This document shows positions 12,310-17,428 of a stretch of 64,000 nucleotides of DNA, piece after piece. Every line of letters starts with the position of its first letter. Position 1 is the first letter of the stretch. The DNA comes from an uncultured Planctomycetaceae bacterium (GTDB lineage: Bacteria > Planctomycetota > Phycisphaerae > SM23-33): the NCBI GenBank assembly GCA_964401835.1, contig CAYNZP010000011.1, positions 18,812 through 82,811 of the forward strand, read 5' to 3'. The translations under genes were made by a program, and so were the position numbers. Below the pieces are notes generated by a model that saw only the letters and a program-made list of their open reading frames with translations, did no database searches and was not told where the DNA came from.

Positions 12310-13413
12310 TTAGCTGTTGTTTACAGCTTCTACGACAAGGTCGCCAACCTCTGTGGTCGAATAGCCCATCCTGCCGGCTGACTGCGTGTCCATCTTCGGC
12401 GTAACTTCGCGGATAGCCTTTTCAACTCTGTTGCCGGCGTCGACAAGTTTATCGTCGCCCTTGTTGGTGCCGGTTTCACGCAGCAGCATTGCCAGCGAGG
12501 CGATGGCCGCTATCGGGTTGATGACATTCTGGCCTGTGTATTTCGGGGCACTGCCGCCGATTGGCTCGAACATGCTGACGCCGCTGGGGTTGATGTTACC
12601 ACCAGCTGCCACGCCCATGCCGCCCTGAATCATCGCGCCAAGGTCGGTGATGATATCGCCGAACATGTTGCAAACGACGATCGTGTCGTAGTACTCGGGG
12701 TTCTTGACAAACCACATGCAGGCTGCGTCGACGTGGTTGTAGTCTTTCTTGATATCCGGGTACTCTTCGCCCACTTCCATGAACGCCCGATACCAAAGAT
12801 CGTGTGCGTAGGTCAGCACGTTGTTCTTGCCGACCAGTGTAACCATGTGTTTCGGGTTGTTGCGGCGTTTGCACAGTTCGAAGGTATAGCGGATCGCCCT
12901 TTCGACGCCGCGGCGGGTGTTGCACATTATCTGCGTCGCCACTTCGTTGTCGGTGCCCTTATACTGGAAACCGCCCATGCCGGTGTACAGCCCTTCGGTA
13001 TTCTCGCGGACCACGAGGAAGTCGATGTCGTCGGAGGTCTTGCCCTTCAGCGGCGTATCGACATTCGGGTACAGCGTAACCGGGCGAAGGTTAATGTACT
13101 GATCCAGCTCGAAGCGAACCTTAAGCAGCAGGCCTTTTTCCAGGATACCCGGGGCTACGTCGGGATGCCCGACCGCGCCGAGGTAGATGGCATCGAAGCT
13201 CTTGAGCTGCTCGATCTCTTCCGGATGAATGACCGGAATGGTCTGCTCGTTGGGGTCGCCGCCGGCCGCCAGGTAACGGTCGCCGCTGACGTTGAAGTCA
13301 GTGGTCTCGTACTCGAACCCAACCTTCCCGGCAACAGCTGCCAGAACCTTCAGGCCTTCGGCTACTACTTCCGGGCCAGTGCCGTCGCCACCGATAACTG
13401 CTATCTTAGTCAC
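12310..13413 (-). CDS. leuB: 3-isopropylmalate dehydrogenase (isocitrate/isopropylmalate dehydrogenase family)
   Basis: IAVIGGDGTGPEV, LRPV, VVRENTEGLY, NMFGDIITDLGA, MFEPIGGSAPK, NPIAAI. Confidence 0.85.
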   Translation of the reverse strand: MTKIAVIGGDGTGPEVVAEGLKVLAAVAGKVGFEYETTDFNVSGDRYLAAGGDPNEQTIPVIHPEEIEQLKSFDAIYLGAVGHPDVAPGILEKGLLLKVRFELDQYINLRPVTLYPNVDTPLKGKTSDDIDFLVVRENTEGLYTGMGGFQYKGTDNEVATQIMCNTRRGVERAIRYTFELCKRRNNPKHMVTLVGKNNVLTYAHDLWYRAFMEVGEEYPDIKKDYNHVDAACMWFVKNPEYYDTIVVCNMFGDIITDLGAMIQGGMGVAAGGNINPSGVSMFEPIGGSAPKYTGQNVINPIAAIASLAMLLRETGTNKGDDKLVDAGNRVEKAIREVTPKMDTQSAGRMGYSTTEVGDLVVEAVNNS

Positions 13414-13557
13414 TTTCCTATCCTTCCTGTTATTTTCAGGTTCTTCTTAATGTTCACAAAAGAGCCGGGTAGTTTACTGCTACGCCTGCCTTTAGGCAAT
13501 AGTTATCAGCTGCCCCGTTTGCTAAAAGTGCCCGAAGCTGCCGCTGCTTGCCGAAAG

Positions 13558-13647
13558 CTGCCCAAAACTGCCCAATTCTGCCCAGTTCTGCCCAGTTCTG
13601 CCCGATTCTGCCCAGTTCTGCCCAATTCTGCCCAATTCTGCCCAGTT
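13558..13647. repeat. Tandem repeat, 9 copies of a 10-bp unit CTGCCC(A/G)(A/G)(T/A)(T/A)
   Basis: ctgcccaaaa ctgcccaatt ctgcccagtt ctgcccagtt ctgcccgatt ctgcccagtt ctgcccaatt ctgcccaatt ctgcccagtt; degenerate units extend leftwards to about 13510. Confidence 0.95.
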
Positions 13648-13965
13648 TTAAAAATGTTAAGTTGATCTTTATTAATGACTTATCGATTCTGGGCCTTAAA
13701 AACGGAAAAAACCAGCTTTTGACGGACTCGGGCTCCTGACTACCGGCTCCCGGCTACGCTTGGTCATGTTATTTGGTTTTTAAAAGTAATCTGCACTCGA
13801 CACTCAGCGTCGTCATTGATTCGGAATTCGTGCTTCTAAATTCGGATTTCCACTTTTGTGGCGCTCCATATTACCTGCGATGACCGCGAAACCCCGCGCA
13901 AAGCGGTAACGTAATCCACGGATTACACGGATAAGTCCCGGCCGGGCCATGAAATGTTTTTTTGA

Positions 13966-14047
13966 AATTTTTTAGCATCACATTCAAACGCTGTACGCTA
14001 TCAATCCGCGCTGAATAACACCGCCGGTTTAGCTGGCTATGCCAAAA
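13966..14047. repeat. Diverged direct repeat, copy 1 (partner 14569-14650)
   Basis: aattttttagcat-c-acattc-a-aacg...cgctatcaatc-N29-gctatgcc; ungapped alignment at offset 603. Confidence 0.85.
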
Positions 14048-14164
14048 AATAGGGGTGGGCATGCTTGTTCGCCCTGCTGCCTCGCCCGATCTCCCAGCAT
14101 GGAAAAAAGTTAGGGCAATCAATTAAAGTATTCGAGAAAATTGCCGATAATAAAACTTTAGTAT

Positions 14165-14200
14165 AAAAAAAGGCCGACTTTGGAGTTTCGGTCGGCCTTT
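14165..14200 (-). terminator. Intrinsic terminator (minus strand) with no annotated upstream ORF
   Basis: Minus strand reads aaaggccgac-cgaaactccaaa-gtcggcc followed by T7. Confidence 0.75.
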
Positions 14201-14204
14201 CCCT

Positions 14205-14289
14205 TGGCGGGCATCGGGTGCTTACACGGCACCAGCAATTAAAGTCATGGGGTCGGGATGCTATTATTTTTAATTGCAATGATGCCCGC
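14205..14289 (-). ncRNA. Candidate structured small RNA (three-way junction, tRNA-like 3' end); family unassigned
   Basis: Stems GCGGGCATC/GATGCCCGC, GCAATTAAA/TTTAATTGC and GGTGC-cgtgtaa-GCACC; ends ...GATGCCC-GCCA just before a terminator. Confidence 0.5.
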
Positions 14290-14430
14290 TATGAGTTTTC
14301 GTACTGGTACTAAAGGAATTTGTCGGAAAATAAAAGGATATGCAAGCAAGACCCCAGTTGGCAGTATAGTTGAATACGTTTTCCCCGACCCAACCGATTT
14401 TATCTTCATAAAATCCACGGTTAAGCCCTT

Positions 14431-14480
14431 CCCTAAAACACCCCAAAAAATCTCAAAACACCCTAAAACAATCTTAAAAT
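14431..14480. repeat. Degenerate 10-bp periodic array with phased A-tracts
   Basis: ccctaaaaca ccccaaaaaa tctcaaaaca ccctaaaaca atcttaaaat. Confidence 0.6.
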
Positions 14481-14568
14481 GTTCCCAAGAAACCCCAAAA
14501 GGAGTGTGCTTATATTTACTTATTCGGCCTTTTCTTCTTACTAAATTAGAAAAAGAAAGAAAATCATG

Positions 14569-14650
14569 AATTTTTTAGCATAACATTCCAACGTAGGGCG
14601 CTATCAATCGACTTTGAACAACCAACTAAGGTTGGCAAGCTATGCCGAAA
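14569..14650. repeat. Diverged direct repeat, copy 2 (partner 13966-14047)
   Basis: aattttttagcat-a-acattc-c-aacg...cgctatcaatc-N29-gctatgcc. Confidence 0.85.
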
Positions 14651-14800
14651 ATTTTGGGGATTTTTGCGTGTGGCACGTCTTGCTCGCAAGGCGTGTTGTT
14701 TGATTTAAGAACATAGCTAGCGAGCTAGCCATGCCACCCGCGCAGCTAAACCCAAGCCGGGCCATGAAATGATTTTTTTGAGTTTTTTGGGGGTGTGGTT

Positions 14801-14893
14801 GTAGGCTGGGGCAAGTGAAACGCGCCCCACCGCGCAAAATGCAAAATGCCAGTAGAATTGCTTTCCCGCGAGCAAACAAGTTGCTCGCCCTAC
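14801..14893. repeat. GTAG-type REP doublet (REPIN-like) at the 3' side of the TIR gene
   Basis: Plus strand GTAGGCT-GGGGC...GCCCC at 14801 and, inverted, minus strand GTAGG-GCGAGCAA-cttgt-TTGCTCGC starting at 14893. Confidence 0.7.
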
Positions 14894-14907
14894 TTACTAC
14901 TTAGTTG

Positions 14908-15840
14908 TTAAAAAGGAATTTTGTAACTGGTTGTCTGCTCTTCAGGCTTTTCTTGGAAAAGAACTCTTCCATGCTTACCAAGTAGTTCGCCTATTTTTGA
15001 ACGGATTTCTGAAGAGTTTTGTATTAGTGGATTGCTTAGTGCATTATTTGATAAACGATCCAATTGTGTCTCTGGAATACTATCAACCTTATTTAATAGG
15101 TTAATTTTATTTTGGGCATCATTAATATTCTTTACTGATAATAAAAGACTACATAAGAGGCCGAGGATTTTGCTTTTTGTTTTGGGATTAAAAACAAGTA
15201 TGTTGAAAATTGCCTCTGCTACTTCGAATACCGTCTTGCCTTCTCCCTGCAATGCTTGAAATTTCCCCAAAAAACCATAGGGGTCTAATTCTTTCTTTAT
15301 TGGGATTACAAGAACATCTCTTCCTAAAGCAATCCCAACCTCTTGTCCAGTCCAATTGCTTTCCTTAAAGCCGGGGGTAAGAATTGCAGCGAAAGCGTCC
15401 ATAGAAAACAAAGCTCTCTCAATTTCGATTTCCCATTCGCGCGTAGGTTCGATGTCTGAATGAGCAACGAAGCCTGATATACCATATGTTAATAATTGTT
15501 TTTGTAGTTTTGCCGTCTTAACTTTAAAAGCTGAAATATGGCTCAAGAAAAGTTTAAAATGCCCTGGCTTCCAAAAAGTGCTTTCGGACAAGTCCAAATC
15601 TTTTGATACTGTATATCCATGTTCGATATCAAGTTCATCGGCTATTTTAATAATTGTTCCAGGAGGAACATCAGCCAATAACTCTTTTGTATATACCCAC
15701 TTACTATTTGCATCGGATGTTTCTTTTTTACAATTTACGCCATGACCTGATAAATAGACATTGATGTCAACATAGGTCATCTTGGCCTGCAATTTTCGGC
15801 CTATGGTATCGATCAAGTTGAATCTATCTATTTGTCTCAT
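14908..15840 (-). CDS. TIR-domain protein (TIR_2-like) with N-terminal helical domain, possible phage-defence protein
   Basis: FKLFLSH, GISGFVAHSDIEPTREWEIEIERAL, SNWTGQEVGIALG (Glu at the TIR catalytic position), VIPI, DPYGFLGKFQAL; clearly more AT-rich than flanking genes. Confidence 0.85.
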   Translation of the reverse strand: MRQIDRFNLIDTIGRKLQAKMTYVDINVYLSGHGVNCKKETSDANSKWVYTKELLADVPPGTIIKIADELDIEHGYTVSKDLDLSESTFWKPGHFKLFLSHISAFKVKTAKLQKQLLTYGISGFVAHSDIEPTREWEIEIERALFSMDAFAAILTPGFKESNWTGQEVGIALGRDVLVIPIKKELDPYGFLGKFQALQGEGKTVFEVAEAIFNILVFNPKTKSKILGLLCSLLLSVKNINDAQNKINLLNKVDSIPETQLDRLSNNALSNPLIQNSSEIRSKIGELLGKHGRVLFQEKPEEQTTSYKIPF

Positions 15841-15879
15841 TTAATTCTTTTAAGAAGCTGTAGGTATCTTTTTTAGTCT

Positions 15880-15955
15880 GTAGGGTGGGTTTTGCCACCC
15901 ACAGATTTATGTTATTGTCTGATATTATTCGCGTGGGTGCAAGCACCCACCCTAC
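15880..15955. repeat. GTAG-type REP doublet (REPIN-like) at the 5' side of the TIR gene
   Basis: GTA-GGGTGG-gttttg-CCACCC-ac ... inverted partner on the minus strand GTAGG-GTGGGTGC-tt-GCACCCAC; both begin GTAGGGTGGG. Confidence 0.8.
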
Positions 15956-15968
15956 CAAGACGTAAAAA

Positions 15969-15996
15969 GCTGAACGCTAATTGCTGAATGCTGAAA
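15969..15996. repeat. Heptamer tandem repeat (4 x GCT(G/A)A(A/T)N)
   Basis: gctgaac gctaatt gctgaat gctgaaa, immediately before the mnmE start. Confidence 0.6.
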
Positions 15997-16003
15997 GGCT
16001 AAA

Positions 16004-17428
16004 ATGCTTTTTGATACGGAAGACACGATTGCGGCGATATCCACAGCGGCTGGTACAGGCGCGCGGGCGATAGTGCGCGTAAGCGGCCCGGAAGCTTTCA
16101 ACATAGCAGCGGCTGTCTTCGCCCCGGCTGACGGTGAGCTTGCAGACATGGCGGGCTTCAGCTCTGCTTCCGGCATCATGCGAACCAACGCCGGAGCTGC
16201 CCCCATAGAGCTGCCGGGTGTAGCTTACGTCTTTCGCGCACCGAGAAGCTTTACACGGGACGACGTTGTAGAGCTTCACATACCCGGAGCGGCAGCTGCC
16301 GCTACTGCCCTGCTGGCTTCGCTGACGGCGGCTGGTGCTAGGCAGGCGAGGCCGGGCGAATTCACCGCGCGGGCGTTTTTCTCCGGCCGGATAGACCTTT
16401 CGGCGGCAGAGGCGGTGGCGGACATAATAAACGCAGCCGACGACGCGCACCTGCGCTCGGCAGTGGCGGCGCTGGGAGGCGAGGTTTACCGTCTGTGCAG
16501 CGGCGCCAGCGAGCAGCTCACCGAGGCACTGGCCAACGTCGAAGCTTCGATAGACATGGCAGAAGAAGATATCCAGTTCGCCACGCCGGCAGCGCTGGCT
16601 GCGCAACTGCACGAACTTTCCGCGAAACTGTGCGGCATAGCCCAAAAAGCGGCCAGCATGCCCGACAAGGCCCAGCTGCCCTGCGTCGCCATCGCGGGCA
16701 GGCCCAACGTCGGTAAAAGTTCGCTGCTAAACGCGCTGAGCGGAACCGACCGTGCGATTGTCTCGGCCCTGGCTGGAACGACGCGCGATGTCCTGACAGC
16801 TACGATGAACTTCGCCGACGGCTCGGCGGCTGTGCTGCAGGACGTAGCCGGCTTTATCGAGCCAGACAGCGAGATAGCCGCAGCTGCCGATAGCGCCGCG
16901 CGGCAGGCGGTTACCGCGGCCGACGTGATAGTTTTCGTGGTCGATATCTCGGAAAAAAGCTTCGAAGCAGACGCCCAGTTGCTCGCGCAGGTCCGCTCGA
17001 CAAACCGTCGCTGCCCGCTGGAATTACTAGCCAACAAAACTGACCAGGTGAAAATTTCGCAAATTCAAAAAAAAATAGATGGCTTGGAAAAGGACATGCA
17101 ACTGGCGGCTATGGGGGTTTCCTGCGAAAGCGGAGCGGGTTTGGACGAGTTCAAAACCACCCTCGAGCAGCGTCTCGGCCTGCACGCCGAGCGAAGCGGG
17201 GTTGCCCTTGGGCTGCACGAGCGTCAGAAAAACTGCCTTATTTCCGCGTCCCAGGCGTCCAAACGCGCGGCTGAGCTCTTGCAAAACTGCGTCCAAGTGG
17301 CTGATTCGGCGGAACTTGTAGCTATCGAGCTGCGGGCGGCGTTATCTCAAATCGGCCTAATAAGCGGACAGGTTGTCACAGAAGACATACTGGGCAGTAT
17401 TTTTTCCCGCTTCTGCGTGGGAAAATAA
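16004..17428 (+). CDS. mnmE: tRNA modification GTPase MnmE/TrmE
   Basis: DTIAAIST, IVRVSGP, PRSFTRDDVVELH, ARPGEFTARAF, GRPNVGKSSLLNAL, GTTRD, DILGSIFSRFCVGK. Confidence 0.96.
   Translation: MLFDTEDTIAAISTAAGTGARAIVRVSGPEAFNIAAAVFAPADGELADMAGFSSASGIMRTNAGAAPIELPGVAYVFRAPRSFTRDDVVELHIPGAAAAATALLASLTAAGARQARPGEFTARAFFSGRIDLSAAEAVADIINAADDAHLRSAVAALGGEVYRLCSGASEQLTEALANVEASIDMAEEDIQFATPAALAAQLHELSAKLCGIAQKAASMPDKAQLPCVAIAGRPNVGKSSLLNALSGTDRAIVSALAGTTRDVLTATMNFADGSAAVLQDVAGFIEPDSEIAAAADSAARQAVTAADVIVFVVDISEKSFEADAQLLAQVRSTNRRCPLELLANKTDQVKISQIQKKIDGLEKDMQLAAMGVSCESGAGLDEFKTTLEQRLGLHAERSGVALGLHERQKNCLISASQASKRAAELLQNCVQVADSAELVAIELRAALSQIGLISGQVVTEDILGSIFSRFCVGK

What the first reader, a model, noticed from the sequence alone, without database searches (positions are those of the whole stretch)
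14908..15840. Stand-alone TIR protein retaining the catalytic Glu, with no partner effector gene
Seen in sequence: TIR core with SNWTGQE, preceded by an ~90-aa helical N-terminal domain and followed by an ~90-aa C-terminal region; no co-oriented neighbour. Established: bacterial TIRs act as NADases or make signals in Thoeris, CBASS and Pycsar-type systems. Inference: a single-gene defence system in which the N-terminal domain (reminiscent of AbiJ-type N-terminal domains) senses infection, or a signal generator acting on an unlinked effector.
Basis: partly seen in the sequence, partly recalled or inferred. Interest (0 to 1): 0.6.

Follow-up and report, generated by a model that had tools for sequence, protein, structure and literature searches.

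The report
Stand-alone TIR enzyme with SSB-like tail
A horizontally acquired single gene encodes a probable NAD-destroying TIR immune enzyme from a large, unstudied family whose members end in a copy of the docking peptide of the host's own DNA-binding protein SSB, hinting at a new way for a one-protein anti-phage system to sense infection.

Summary

The family is large: 1349 clusters at 50% identity, found in 297 species genomes across many phyla and on Klebsiella conjugative plasmids. No neighbour is conserved across 77 loci, and none of 40 relatives of this genome carries the gene. It most likely acts alone as an abortive-infection NADase. The closest studied analogue is SpbK of Bacillus subtilis.

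In 57 of 68 genomes the residue before Pro-Phe is the same as in the host's SSB. In two genomes the last nine residues are identical but encoded by different codons.

The window's own copy is an outlier. It ends SYKIPF, with the acidic residues lost, and has G165 where 98% of relatives have Asp.

The AbiJ idea is only partly supported: some relatives carry AbiJ_NTD3, but this protein matches no AbiJ model.

Other agents of this scan noted SSB-tail mimics on other defence proteins before. I found no paper describing it.

The parts
14908..15840 (-). TIR-family gene, 310 codons plus stop (protein P0001)
   Evidence: ORF list and translation. TIR_2 at 43.3 bits. More than 1000 full-length relatives at 50-58% identity, whose conserved residues 1-20 support the ATG at 15840 over the Met-21 start of the database's 290-aa version of this protein.
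15616..15840 (-). N-terminal four-helix domain (residues 1-75), probable sensor or adaptor
   Evidence: Helices 3-20, 23-32, 47-55 and 60-69 in the model, pLDDT above 90. Conserved motifs NSKW and IADEL-IEH. No Pfam family. Weak profile match to the SpbK N-terminal region (E 0.0022). Replaced by other N-domains in some relatives.
15232..15564 (-). TIR domain (residues 93-203)
15340..15354 (-). WxxxE catalytic motif: W163-T-G-Q-E167
   Evidence: Read directly from the sequence. W163 and E167 are invariant in 106 sequences and align to AbTir W204/E208. G165 replaces an Asp present in 98% of relatives.
14971..15231 (-). C-terminal helical domain (residues 204-290), unassigned fold, always joined to this TIR subtype
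   Evidence: Six helices with pLDDT 95-98. Kept in relatives that have other N-domains. No confident fold or family match.
14911..14970 (-). Disordered linker (residues 291-307) and SSB-Ct-like tip ending I-P-F
   Evidence: No secondary structure and lower pLDDT. The family consensus tip is D-D-D-I-P-F. This copy ends S-Y-K-I-P-F, and the host SSB ends G-E-E-I-P-F.
13450..16000 (.). Low-GC islet (37-48% GC against 52-63% around it) that holds the gene
   Evidence: Composition profile. The gene was not found in 40 related genomes.
13932..14788 (.). Copies of a dispersed intergenic repeat of this genome, downstream of the gene
   Evidence: Repeat families D3 and D4. 22 matches across the genome.
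15880..15955 (.). Palindromic element (23-nt arms) between the TIR gene and mnmE, also a dispersed repeat
   Evidence: Inverted repeat I1. 7 matches in the genome, several next to the other repeat type.

Best explanation
The gene encodes a self-contained, one-protein anti-phage system of the abortive-infection type.

Shown: the TIR domain has the fold and the WxxxE catalytic motif of NAD-cleaving TIRs such as AbTir and SARM1. The gene travels alone between distant phyla, plasmids and genomic islets. The family ends in a flexible linker plus an acidic-[ILV]-P-F tip that equals the SSB C-terminal docking peptide and usually matches the host's own SSB.

Inferred: in uninfected cells the protein is dispersed and inactive. 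During infection a multimeric phage (or other mobile-element) protein binds the non-catalytic parts, and this brings TIR domains together. TIR NADases need such self-association to build their active site, as shown for SpbK on the dodecameric portal YonE. NAD+ is then destroyed and the infected cell stops supporting the phage.

The SSB-like tip is most simply read as bait for proteins that have evolved to grab the host SSB tail. Phage recombinases of the Red-beta/RecT kind are known to do this with host specificity.

The window's copy keeps the I-P-F end but has lost the acidic residues, so its tip may bind more weakly or differently.
For: TIR identity and catalytic residues.

Autonomy: among 77 loci the most common neighbour cluster occurs in 6 loci, at scattered positions. 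The 142 immediate neighbours fall into 150 Pfam families, and none is found in more than 4 of them.

Mobility and defence-like distribution: 297 species genomes across many phyla, including candidate phyla radiation bacteria. IncF conjugative plasmids, beside IS26. Type I R-M subunits and transposases are the commonest neighbours. 37% GC islet. 0 of 40 relatives carry the gene.

SSB-like tip: 117 of 121 close relatives and 77 of 148 wider relatives end in [ILVM]PF. In 79 tails, positions -6 to -4 are D/E in nearly all. The E. coli SSB tip is MDFDDDIPF (PMC7913777). The residue at -3 equals the host SSB's in 57 of 68 genomes, against 31 expected under random pairing. The rare Val at -3 is matched in two genomes. 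The last nine residues are identical in two genomes, encoded by different codons.

Precedents: activation of SpbK by clustering on YonE (PMC12847820). Red-beta and RecT read the last 7 residues of the host SSB (bioRxiv 10.1101/2020.04.14.041095). Phage SSB or replication proteins trigger other defences (bioRxiv 10.64898/2026.02.22.705581; PMC11350192).
Against: No experiment exists for any member, so NADase activity, defence and tip binding are all inferred.

The match between TIR tip and host SSB is largely structured by clade. On the TIR tree, Ile/Leu changes only 6 times in the tip and 4 times in the host SSB, and the test on independent pairs has no power.

About a quarter to a half of the wider family lacks the tip, so the tip is not essential to the core function.

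This copy deviates at two strongly conserved features: the acidic tip is lost, and position 165 is Gly instead of Asp.

PADLOC and NCBIfam have no specific model for the family, so no curated source calls it a defence system. No member was found in 50,697 phage records or in complete E. coli genomes. That neither helps nor hurts the reading.
Confidence: 0.55

Rival explanations
1. Same enzyme, different use of the tip. The SSB-like peptide docks the protein onto the host's own SSB-interacting proteins (such as PriA, RecQ, ExoI, RecO or the clamp-loader chi subunit). The TIR enzyme then waits at replication and repair sites, or guards these proteins, and fires when phage factors disturb them.
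For: The tip equals the peptide that recruits more than 17 host proteins and follows the host's SSB version. Host partners are always present and would select for a match just as well as phage partners would.
Against: Constant competition with SSB for essential partners should be costly. Nothing explains how docking would switch the enzyme on. The family moves freely between phyla, which is easier if the target is supplied by the invader. No data separate this reading from the bait reading.
Confidence: 0.2
2. A signal-producing TIR of the ThsB kind. It makes a cyclic ADP-ribose-type messenger for an effector encoded elsewhere in the genome.
For: The TIR core gives weak matches to ThsB models (PADLOC E 0.0085-0.011; NCBIfam Thoeris type III ThcB4 E 1.6e-4, far below its cut-off). 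The WxxxE Trp is linked to cyclic product formation in AbTir.
Against: No conserved neighbour in 77 loci. A gene that transfers alone cannot rely on an unlinked partner. This genome has no ThsA-type gene: its only SIR2_2 hit is a SIR2-HerA pair on another contig. This is the only TIR_2 gene in the genome.
Confidence: 0.07
3. Not an anti-phage gene. It is a mobile-element factor that plugs into the SSB interaction hub for the element's own benefit, for example by modulating host repair or replication during transfer. Alternatively it is an NAD-linked regulator of DNA metabolism.
For: Members sit on conjugative plasmids. Earlier notes of this scan report phage and plasmid proteins of other folds that also carry SSB-like tips (unchecked). 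The neighbourhoods are not dominated by defence genes.
Against: An invariant catalytic Glu in a SARM1/AbTir-like TIR points to NAD+ cleavage, which is toxic. No member was found in phage genomes.
Confidence: 0.1
4. The window's own copy is a decaying or disabled member. The ORF is intact, but the tip has lost its acidic residues and Asp165 next to the catalytic Glu has become Gly. It may no longer respond or cleave NAD+ as its relatives do. This can hold together with any reading of the family.
For: It is the only one of 79 tip-bearing sequences with no acidic residue at -6 to -4, and it has Lys at -4 where all others have D/E. G165 stands against 98% Asp. Its nearest relative is only 58% identical.
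Against: The full-length ORF has no stops. All 46 family-invariant positions are kept, including W163 and E167. AbTir is active with Asn at the position equivalent to 165. The final I-P-F, the part seen bound in SSB-partner structures, is kept and equals the host's own SSB ending.
Confidence: 0.2

Closest known systems
SpbK (YddK) of Bacillus subtilis ICEBs1, a single-gene TIR abortive-infection protein (PDB 9phb; PMC12847820)
   Different: SpbK has no C-terminal helical domain and no SSB-like tip. The sequence relation is marginal (20.8 bits). The trigger of the present family is unknown.
AbTir / BtpA / PdTIR-type bacterial TIR NADases and the SARM1 TIR domain
   Different: Those proteins have other partner domains: coiled coil in AbTir, ARM-SAM in SARM1. 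None carries the N- and C-terminal domains or the tip seen here. Sequence identity is only 17-20%.
C-terminal tip of bacterial SSB (SSB-Ct; E. coli MDFDDDIPF), the docking peptide for SSB-interacting proteins
   Same: It sits at the extreme C-terminus after a disordered linker. It has an aromatic residue at about -7, three acidic residues, then [ILV]-P-F with a free carboxylate. It usually matches the host's version.
   Different: Here it is carried by an enzyme with no OB fold and no basic DNA-binding domain. The linker is about 15 residues, against about 56 in E. coli SSB. The window's copy has lost the acidic part.
Thoeris ThsB and CBASS/Pycsar TIR effectors (TIR-SAVED, TIR-STING, Cap12)
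   Same: TIR domain with a catalytic Glu. Weak HMM matches restricted to the TIR core.
   Different: Those are parts of multi-gene operons (ThsA, a cyclase) or carry ligand-sensor domains. None of these is present here.
AbiJ-NTD3-fused effectors (Pfam PF18860)
   Same: Some relatives of this TIR plus C-domain core carry AbiJ_NTD3 at the N-terminus (P0148, P0241, P0264).
   Different: The window protein has no AbiJ_NTD match. In P0148 the AbiJ_NTD3 sits upstream of this family's own N-domain, so they are separate modules.

Membership tests
TIR domain superfamily (Pfam TIR_2, PF13676) | HMM match above the curated cut-off | tested here: met
   43.3 bits against a cut-off of 28, residues 98-196. 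All 25 aligned relatives match.
TIR domain superfamily (Pfam TIR_2, PF13676) | Flavodoxin-like TIR fold | tested here: met
Catalytic (NAD-cleaving) TIRs | Conserved catalytic Glu, here within WxxxE | tested here: met
   W163 and E167 are invariant in 106 sequences and align to AbTir W204/E208.
Catalytic (NAD-cleaving) TIRs | NAD+ hydrolase or cyclase activity that depends on self-association | not testable with these tools
   Needs a biochemical assay.
Thoeris (ThsB) | Linked ThsA effector gene (SIR2-SLOG or Macro/TM) | tested here: not met
   No conserved neighbour in 77 loci. The window's neighbours are housekeeping genes. The genome's only SIR2_2 gene belongs to a SIR2-HerA pair.
Thoeris (ThsB) | Match to ThsB family models | tested here: inconclusive
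   PADLOC ThsB E 0.0085-0.011. NCBIfam ThcB4 at 20.7 bits against a cut-off of 220.
CBASS/Pycsar TIR effectors | Adjacent cyclase gene and a nucleotide-sensor domain (SAVED, STING, Cap12 N-domain) | tested here: not met
   No such neighbour or domain. The SAVED_TIR model matches only the TIR part, E 0.0039.
SpbK-like single-gene TIR Abi | Stand-alone gene with an N-terminal helical sensor domain plus a catalytic TIR | tested here: met
   Architecture from the model. Stand-alone status.
SpbK-like single-gene TIR Abi | Sequence homology to SpbK beyond the TIR core | tested here: inconclusive
   Profile against 9phb_G: E 0.0022, 20.8 bits, query 8-123 to chain 53-166. The SpbK N-domain did not appear in the fold matches: the only 9phb alignment that gives a range covers model residues 95-248.
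SpbK-like single-gene TIR Abi | Activation by an oligomeric phage protein; abortive infection | not testable with these tools
   Needs phage challenge and escape mutants.
AbiJ N-terminal domain proteins (PF18860, PF18863, PF18865) | HMM match to an AbiJ_NTD model | tested here: not met
   No AbiJ_NTD hit at E up to 1 for the window protein or for 25 relatives. Atlas look-alikes score only 0.77. AbiJ_NTD3 is present only as an extra domain in P0148, P0241 and P0264.
SSB-Ct-type docking tip | Extreme C-terminal [ILV]-P-F after a disordered linker | tested here: met
   The window protein ends I-P-F after residues 291-307, which have no secondary structure. The family.
SSB-Ct-type docking tip | Acidic residues at -6 to -4 | tested here: not met
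   The window copy has S-Y-K. 78 of 79 relatives have at least one acidic residue there and 74 have two or three. The feature is met for the family, not for this copy.
SSB-Ct-type docking tip | Binding to SSB-interacting proteins | not testable with these tools
   Needs peptide binding or pull-down assays.

The most novel reading that the evidence does not exclude
The family is an 'integrated decoy' immune receptor of bacteria. Its flexible C-terminal copy of the host SSB tail baits phage proteins that must seize the host SSB (annealases, helicase loaders, SSB-hijacking factors). Capture by such multimeric proteins clusters the TIR domains and triggers NAD+ destruction. The bait is kept matched to each host's SSB by selection.
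Probability: 0.3. Interest if true: 0.85.

Novelty: new variant of a known kind. Interest (0 to 1): 0.62.

Why it matters
How one-protein defence systems tell infection from normal life is an open question for most of them. A short, host-matched copy of the SSB docking peptide on a TIR NADase gives a concrete, testable answer. The peptide can be deleted, swapped between hosts or used as an affinity handle to fish out the trigger.

If it acts as bait, it would be a bacterial counterpart of the integrated decoys of plant immune receptors. It would also explain why phage replication and recombination proteins so often trigger defences. The family is large (over a thousand sequence clusters, many phyla, clinical Klebsiella plasmids) and is absent from the defence HMM libraries searched here. 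Annotating it would therefore fill a gap.

For this window itself the result is more modest. It holds a recently acquired, somewhat atypical member in a Phycisphaerae-like genome.

Tried and rejected
I took genomic context from the search for related loci instead.

2. No sequence match to it appeared in the PDB searches. I rejected it as a relative and kept it only as a precedent for SSB-linked sensing.

3. The C-domain matched the DNA polymerase beta 8-kDa domain at E 0.07 with a 25-sequence profile. The match vanished with the 106-sequence profile, so I rejected it.

4. The AbiJ_NTD identity of the N-domain is not supported.

5. Folds of the N- and C-domains alone could not be tested. The Atlas look-alikes scored below 0.8. 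I make no claim that these folds are new.

6. Phylogeny-aware test of tip and host SSB co-variation: only 4 to 6 independent contrasts, none in the opposite direction, no statistical power. The permutation p-value is not corrected for relatedness.

7. Recent gene conversion between ssb and the TIR gene as the source of the identical 9-mers is rejected. The codons differ (for example Ser AGT against TCC) and the downstream DNA is unrelated.

8. A basic, DNA-binding surface that the acidic tip could cover in cis: net charges are about -3 (N-domain), -1 (TIR) and 0 (C-domain), so there is no sign of one.

9. No member was found in the phage collection or, at the DNA level, in complete E. coli genomes.

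10. Synteny with relatives is uninformative. The nearest MnmE is 57% identical, and the dehydrogenase gene that flanks the islet here is not adjacent there.

11. In this one genome only SSB and this protein end in [ILVM]PF among 3372 ORFs of at least 100 aa. About one or two such endings are expected by chance, so this count alone proves nothing.

12. Literature searches for a TIR linked to the SSB tail found no paper. The Swarozyc preprint does not mention SSB.

Full report
**What is there**

Window 14908-15840 (minus strand) is an intact 310-codon ORF with an ATG start.
- Pfam TIR_2 matches residues 98-196 at 43.3 bits, above the 28-bit cut-off.
- The defence library PADLOC gives only weak matches to the TIR core (ThsB and SAVED-TIR, E 0.004-0.011).
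- NCBIfam gives only far-sub-threshold matches to retron-TIR and Thoeris type III models.
- The database's own version of this protein (290 aa, P0002) starts at Met-21. Residues 1-20 are conserved in relatives (L9, D11, G14, R15, L17, Q18), so the longer ORF is the right one.

The gene lies in a stretch of 37-48% GC (about 13450-16000), while the surroundings are 52-63% GC.
- On one side is an isocitrate/isopropylmalate dehydrogenase gene (12310-13413, minus strand). On the other is mnmE (16004-17428, plus strand).
- The window has no tRNA gene and no Rfam match.
- The 1.5 kb downstream of the gene holds no ORF with a family match.
- That stretch contains a 10-bp tandem repeat and copies of a roughly 110-bp element with 22 matches across this genome.
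- The 160 bp upstream holds a palindromic element with 7 matches in the genome.
- By TGT similarity (71% to a Phycisphaerae MAG) the host is probably a member of Planctomycetota, class Phycisphaerae. The genome is 2.5 Mb in 23 contigs and carries a single copy of the gene.

**Structure and catalytic site**

With a 25-sequence alignment the model was poor (pLDDT 72.5). With 106 sequences it reached pLDDT 93 and pTM 0.77. It shows four parts:
- a four-helix N-terminal domain (residues 3-69) and a linker;
- a TIR core (about 93-203);
- a six-helix C-terminal domain (204-289);
- about 20 residues without secondary structure.

A family profile aligns the window's W163-T-G-Q-E167 to the D-W-T-N-Y-E-L stretch of AbTir (E 0.0013). 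That stretch holds the WxxxE motif, whose Glu208 is catalytic and whose Trp204 influences cyclic product formation (PMC10641520). W163 and E167 are invariant in 106 relatives.

**The family and its contexts**

- The word-indexed search found more than 1000 clusters at 90% identity. Most are about 311 aa long and 50-58% identical over the full length.
- The exhaustive profile search found 1349 clusters at 50% identity with E below 1e-30.
- In one genome per species (185,579 species), 297 stretches encode a relative. They come from Pseudomonadota, Desulfobacterota, Acidobacteriota, Bacteroidota, Bacillota, Cyanobacteria, Planctomycetota, Latescibacterota, Chloroflexota and several candidate phyla radiation lineages.
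- Two Klebsiella pneumoniae IncF conjugative plasmids carry a member beside IS26.
- No phage record and no complete E. coli genome gave a match.
- None of 40 related genomes (24 of the same family) has the gene.

I called ORFs within 5 kb of the gene in 77 loci and clustered them. The most widespread neighbour cluster occurs in only 6 loci, at scattered positions and on both strands. The 142 immediate neighbours fall into 150 Pfam families, and none occurs more than four times. The top ones are type I restriction specificity and R subunits, DNA methylases and transposases. In three Balneolaceae genomes the gene sits inside a type I R-M locus.

The gene is therefore truly stand-alone, mobile and patchily distributed, with a mild link to restriction loci and mobile elements.

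The modules vary:
- Many relatives replace the N-domain with other domains of about 120 aa.
- Some add an 80-aa N-terminal extension.
- Three (P0148, P0241, P0264) carry a true AbiJ_NTD3. In P0148 it sits upstream of the complete 310-aa module.
- The TIR plus C-domain core stays constant.

**The C-terminal tip**

In the first alignment the last two residues (Pro, Phe) were invariant and the consensus ending was D-D-D-I-P-F.
- 117 of 121 close relatives and 77 of 148 wider representatives end in [ILVM]-P-F.
- In 79 tip-bearing sequences, position -4 is D/E in 78, position -5 in 68 and position -6 in 57. An aromatic residue is common at -7.
- This is the consensus of the SSB C-terminal tip. In E. 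coli that tip is M-D-F-D-D-D-I-P-F, and it recruits more than 17 genome-maintenance proteins (PMC7913777).
- As in SSB, it follows a disordered linker.

I then took the SSB genes of the same 80 genomes and compared the tails.
- In 68 genomes with both tails, the residue before Pro-Phe (Ile, Leu or Val) is the same in 57. Random pairing gives 31 (none of 20,000 permutations reached 57).
- Further upstream (-10 to -4), true pairs share slightly more residues than pairs shuffled within the same Ile/Leu class (2.5 against 2.2 of 7, p about 2e-4).
- The rare Val is matched in a Planctomyces and an Oleiagrimonas genome.
- In a Kerfeldbacteria genome both proteins end T-I-S-I-E-D-I-P-F. In a gammaproteobacterial MAG both end E-E-F-D-D-D-I-P-F.
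- The DNA under these identical peptides uses different codons (Ser AGT against TCC) and the downstream sequence is unrelated. The identity is therefore kept at the protein level and is not a recent copy.

Caveat: on a tree of the TIR proteins built without their tails, Ile/Leu changes only 6 times in the tip and 4 times in the hosts' SSB. That leaves 4 independent contrasts, none in the opposite direction and too few for a test. Most of the concordance therefore reflects large clades, such as Bacteroidota with Leu and Proteobacteria with Ile. The permutation p-values overstate the number of independent events.

**The window's copy**

Its host SSB ends G-G-E-E-I-P-F. The TIR protein ends T-S-Y-K-I-P-F.
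- It keeps the I-P-F that equals the host's. Pro-Phe is the part seen bound in the RecO-peptide structure.
- It is the only one of 79 tails with no acidic residue at -6 to -4.
- It also has Gly at position 165, where 98% of relatives have Asp. AbTir has Asn at that position, so this change need not inactivate the enzyme.
- All other conserved positions are kept.
- In the whole genome only SSB and this protein end in [ILVM]PF among 3372 ORFs of at least 100 aa. About one or two are expected by chance, so this is only a consistency check.

**How it most likely works**

Shown: a TIR with the catalytic motif; autonomy; mobility; an SSB-like tip that usually matches the host.

Inferred from established knowledge:
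- Bacterial and animal TIR NADases are active only when TIR domains self-associate.
- The single-gene system SpbK is switched on when its N-terminal domain binds the dodecameric phage portal YonE and the TIR domains cluster (PMC12847820).
- Phage Red-beta and RecT proteins recognise the last seven residues of the host SSB with host specificity (bioRxiv 10.1101/2020.04.14.041095).
- Phage SSB and replication proteins trigger several other defences.

My best reading (0.55) is a one-protein abortive-infection NADase. Its non-catalytic parts, including the SSB-like tip, are bound by a multimeric phage protein, and this clusters the TIR domains and depletes NAD+. Within that reading, the tip as bait for phage proteins that target the host SSB tail has a probability of about 0.3.

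The main rivals are:
- the tip docks the enzyme on the host's own SSB partners (0.2);
- the gene serves a mobile element rather than defence (0.1);
- it is a ThsB-like signal generator with an unlinked effector (0.07). This is unlikely because the gene moves alone, and the only SIR2 gene in this genome belongs to a separate SIR2-HerA system next to a serine recombinase.

A role of the tip as a cis-inhibitor covering a DNA-binding surface finds no support, because none of the domains is basic.

**Comparison with known systems and novelty**

The closest studied system in mode of action is SpbK. A weak profile match (E 0.0022, 20.8 bits) covers the N-domain and the start of the TIR. Membership in one family with SpbK is not established.

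The protein is a member of the TIR superfamily and of its catalytic branch by every sequence and fold criterion tested. It is not a Thoeris, CBASS or Pycsar component, and it carries no AbiJ_NTD itself.

I found no paper that connects a TIR or any defence enzyme with the SSB tip. The Swarozyc preprint does not mention SSB.

Other agents of this scan have noted SSB-tail mimics on other DNA: a TIR-wHTH protein, a Swarozyc-like NADase, a Shedu nuclease and a kinase. I saw the tip here before reading those notes, and they are not independent evidence.

I class the finding as a new variant of a known kind: a single-gene TIR NADase defence with an undescribed sensor and docking arrangement.

**Limits**

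- No experiment exists for any member.
- Defence-island enrichment was judged only from immediate neighbours.

Noticed in passing
window 13932-14060, 14569-14650, 14747-14788: A roughly 110-130 bp intergenic element occurs several times downstream of the TIR gene and has 22 matches across the 2.5-Mb genome. It looks like a MITE/REP-type dispersed repeat of this Phycisphaerae-like genome.
   Followed up: partly
window 15880-15955: A palindromic element (23-nt arms, 30-nt spacer) lies between the TIR gene and mnmE and recurs 7 times in the genome. At three sites (contigs C8, C1 and C17) it sits next to the repeat above, so both may be parts of one composite element that brackets the islet.
   Followed up: partly
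window 13529-13657: A tandem array of about 13 copies of a 10-bp unit (consensus CTGCCCAGTT) lies just downstream of the dehydrogenase gene. Its function is unknown.
   Followed up: no
G000 contig C17:17198-20784 (locus L288:1699-5287): A separate SIR2-HerA defence system sits beside a large serine recombinase gene (PADLOC SIR2 1.6e-73, HerA 3.1e-130). An upstream RNase H/exonuclease-like gene lies just before it.
   Followed up: partly
loci L037, L040, L060 (Balneolaceae genomes): The TIR family gene is embedded in a type I restriction-modification locus. It directly follows the specificity-subunit gene, which follows a 491-aa gene conserved in the three loci (probably the methylase), and the large R-subunit gene lies 0.8-3.5 kb downstream.
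   Followed up: partly
proteins P0034, P0046, P0050, P0053 and similar (392-394 aa): A subgroup of the family has a conserved 80-residue N-terminal extension with no Pfam match.
   Followed up: no
SSB loci of Bacteroidota genomes (e.g. L106, L143, L172-L177): Bacteroidota genomes carry several SSB paralogues that end without the acidic tip (endings such as LLLGK), in addition to one SSB with a D-D-L-P-F tail. In two Flavobacterium genomes no tip-bearing SSB was recovered.
   Followed up: no
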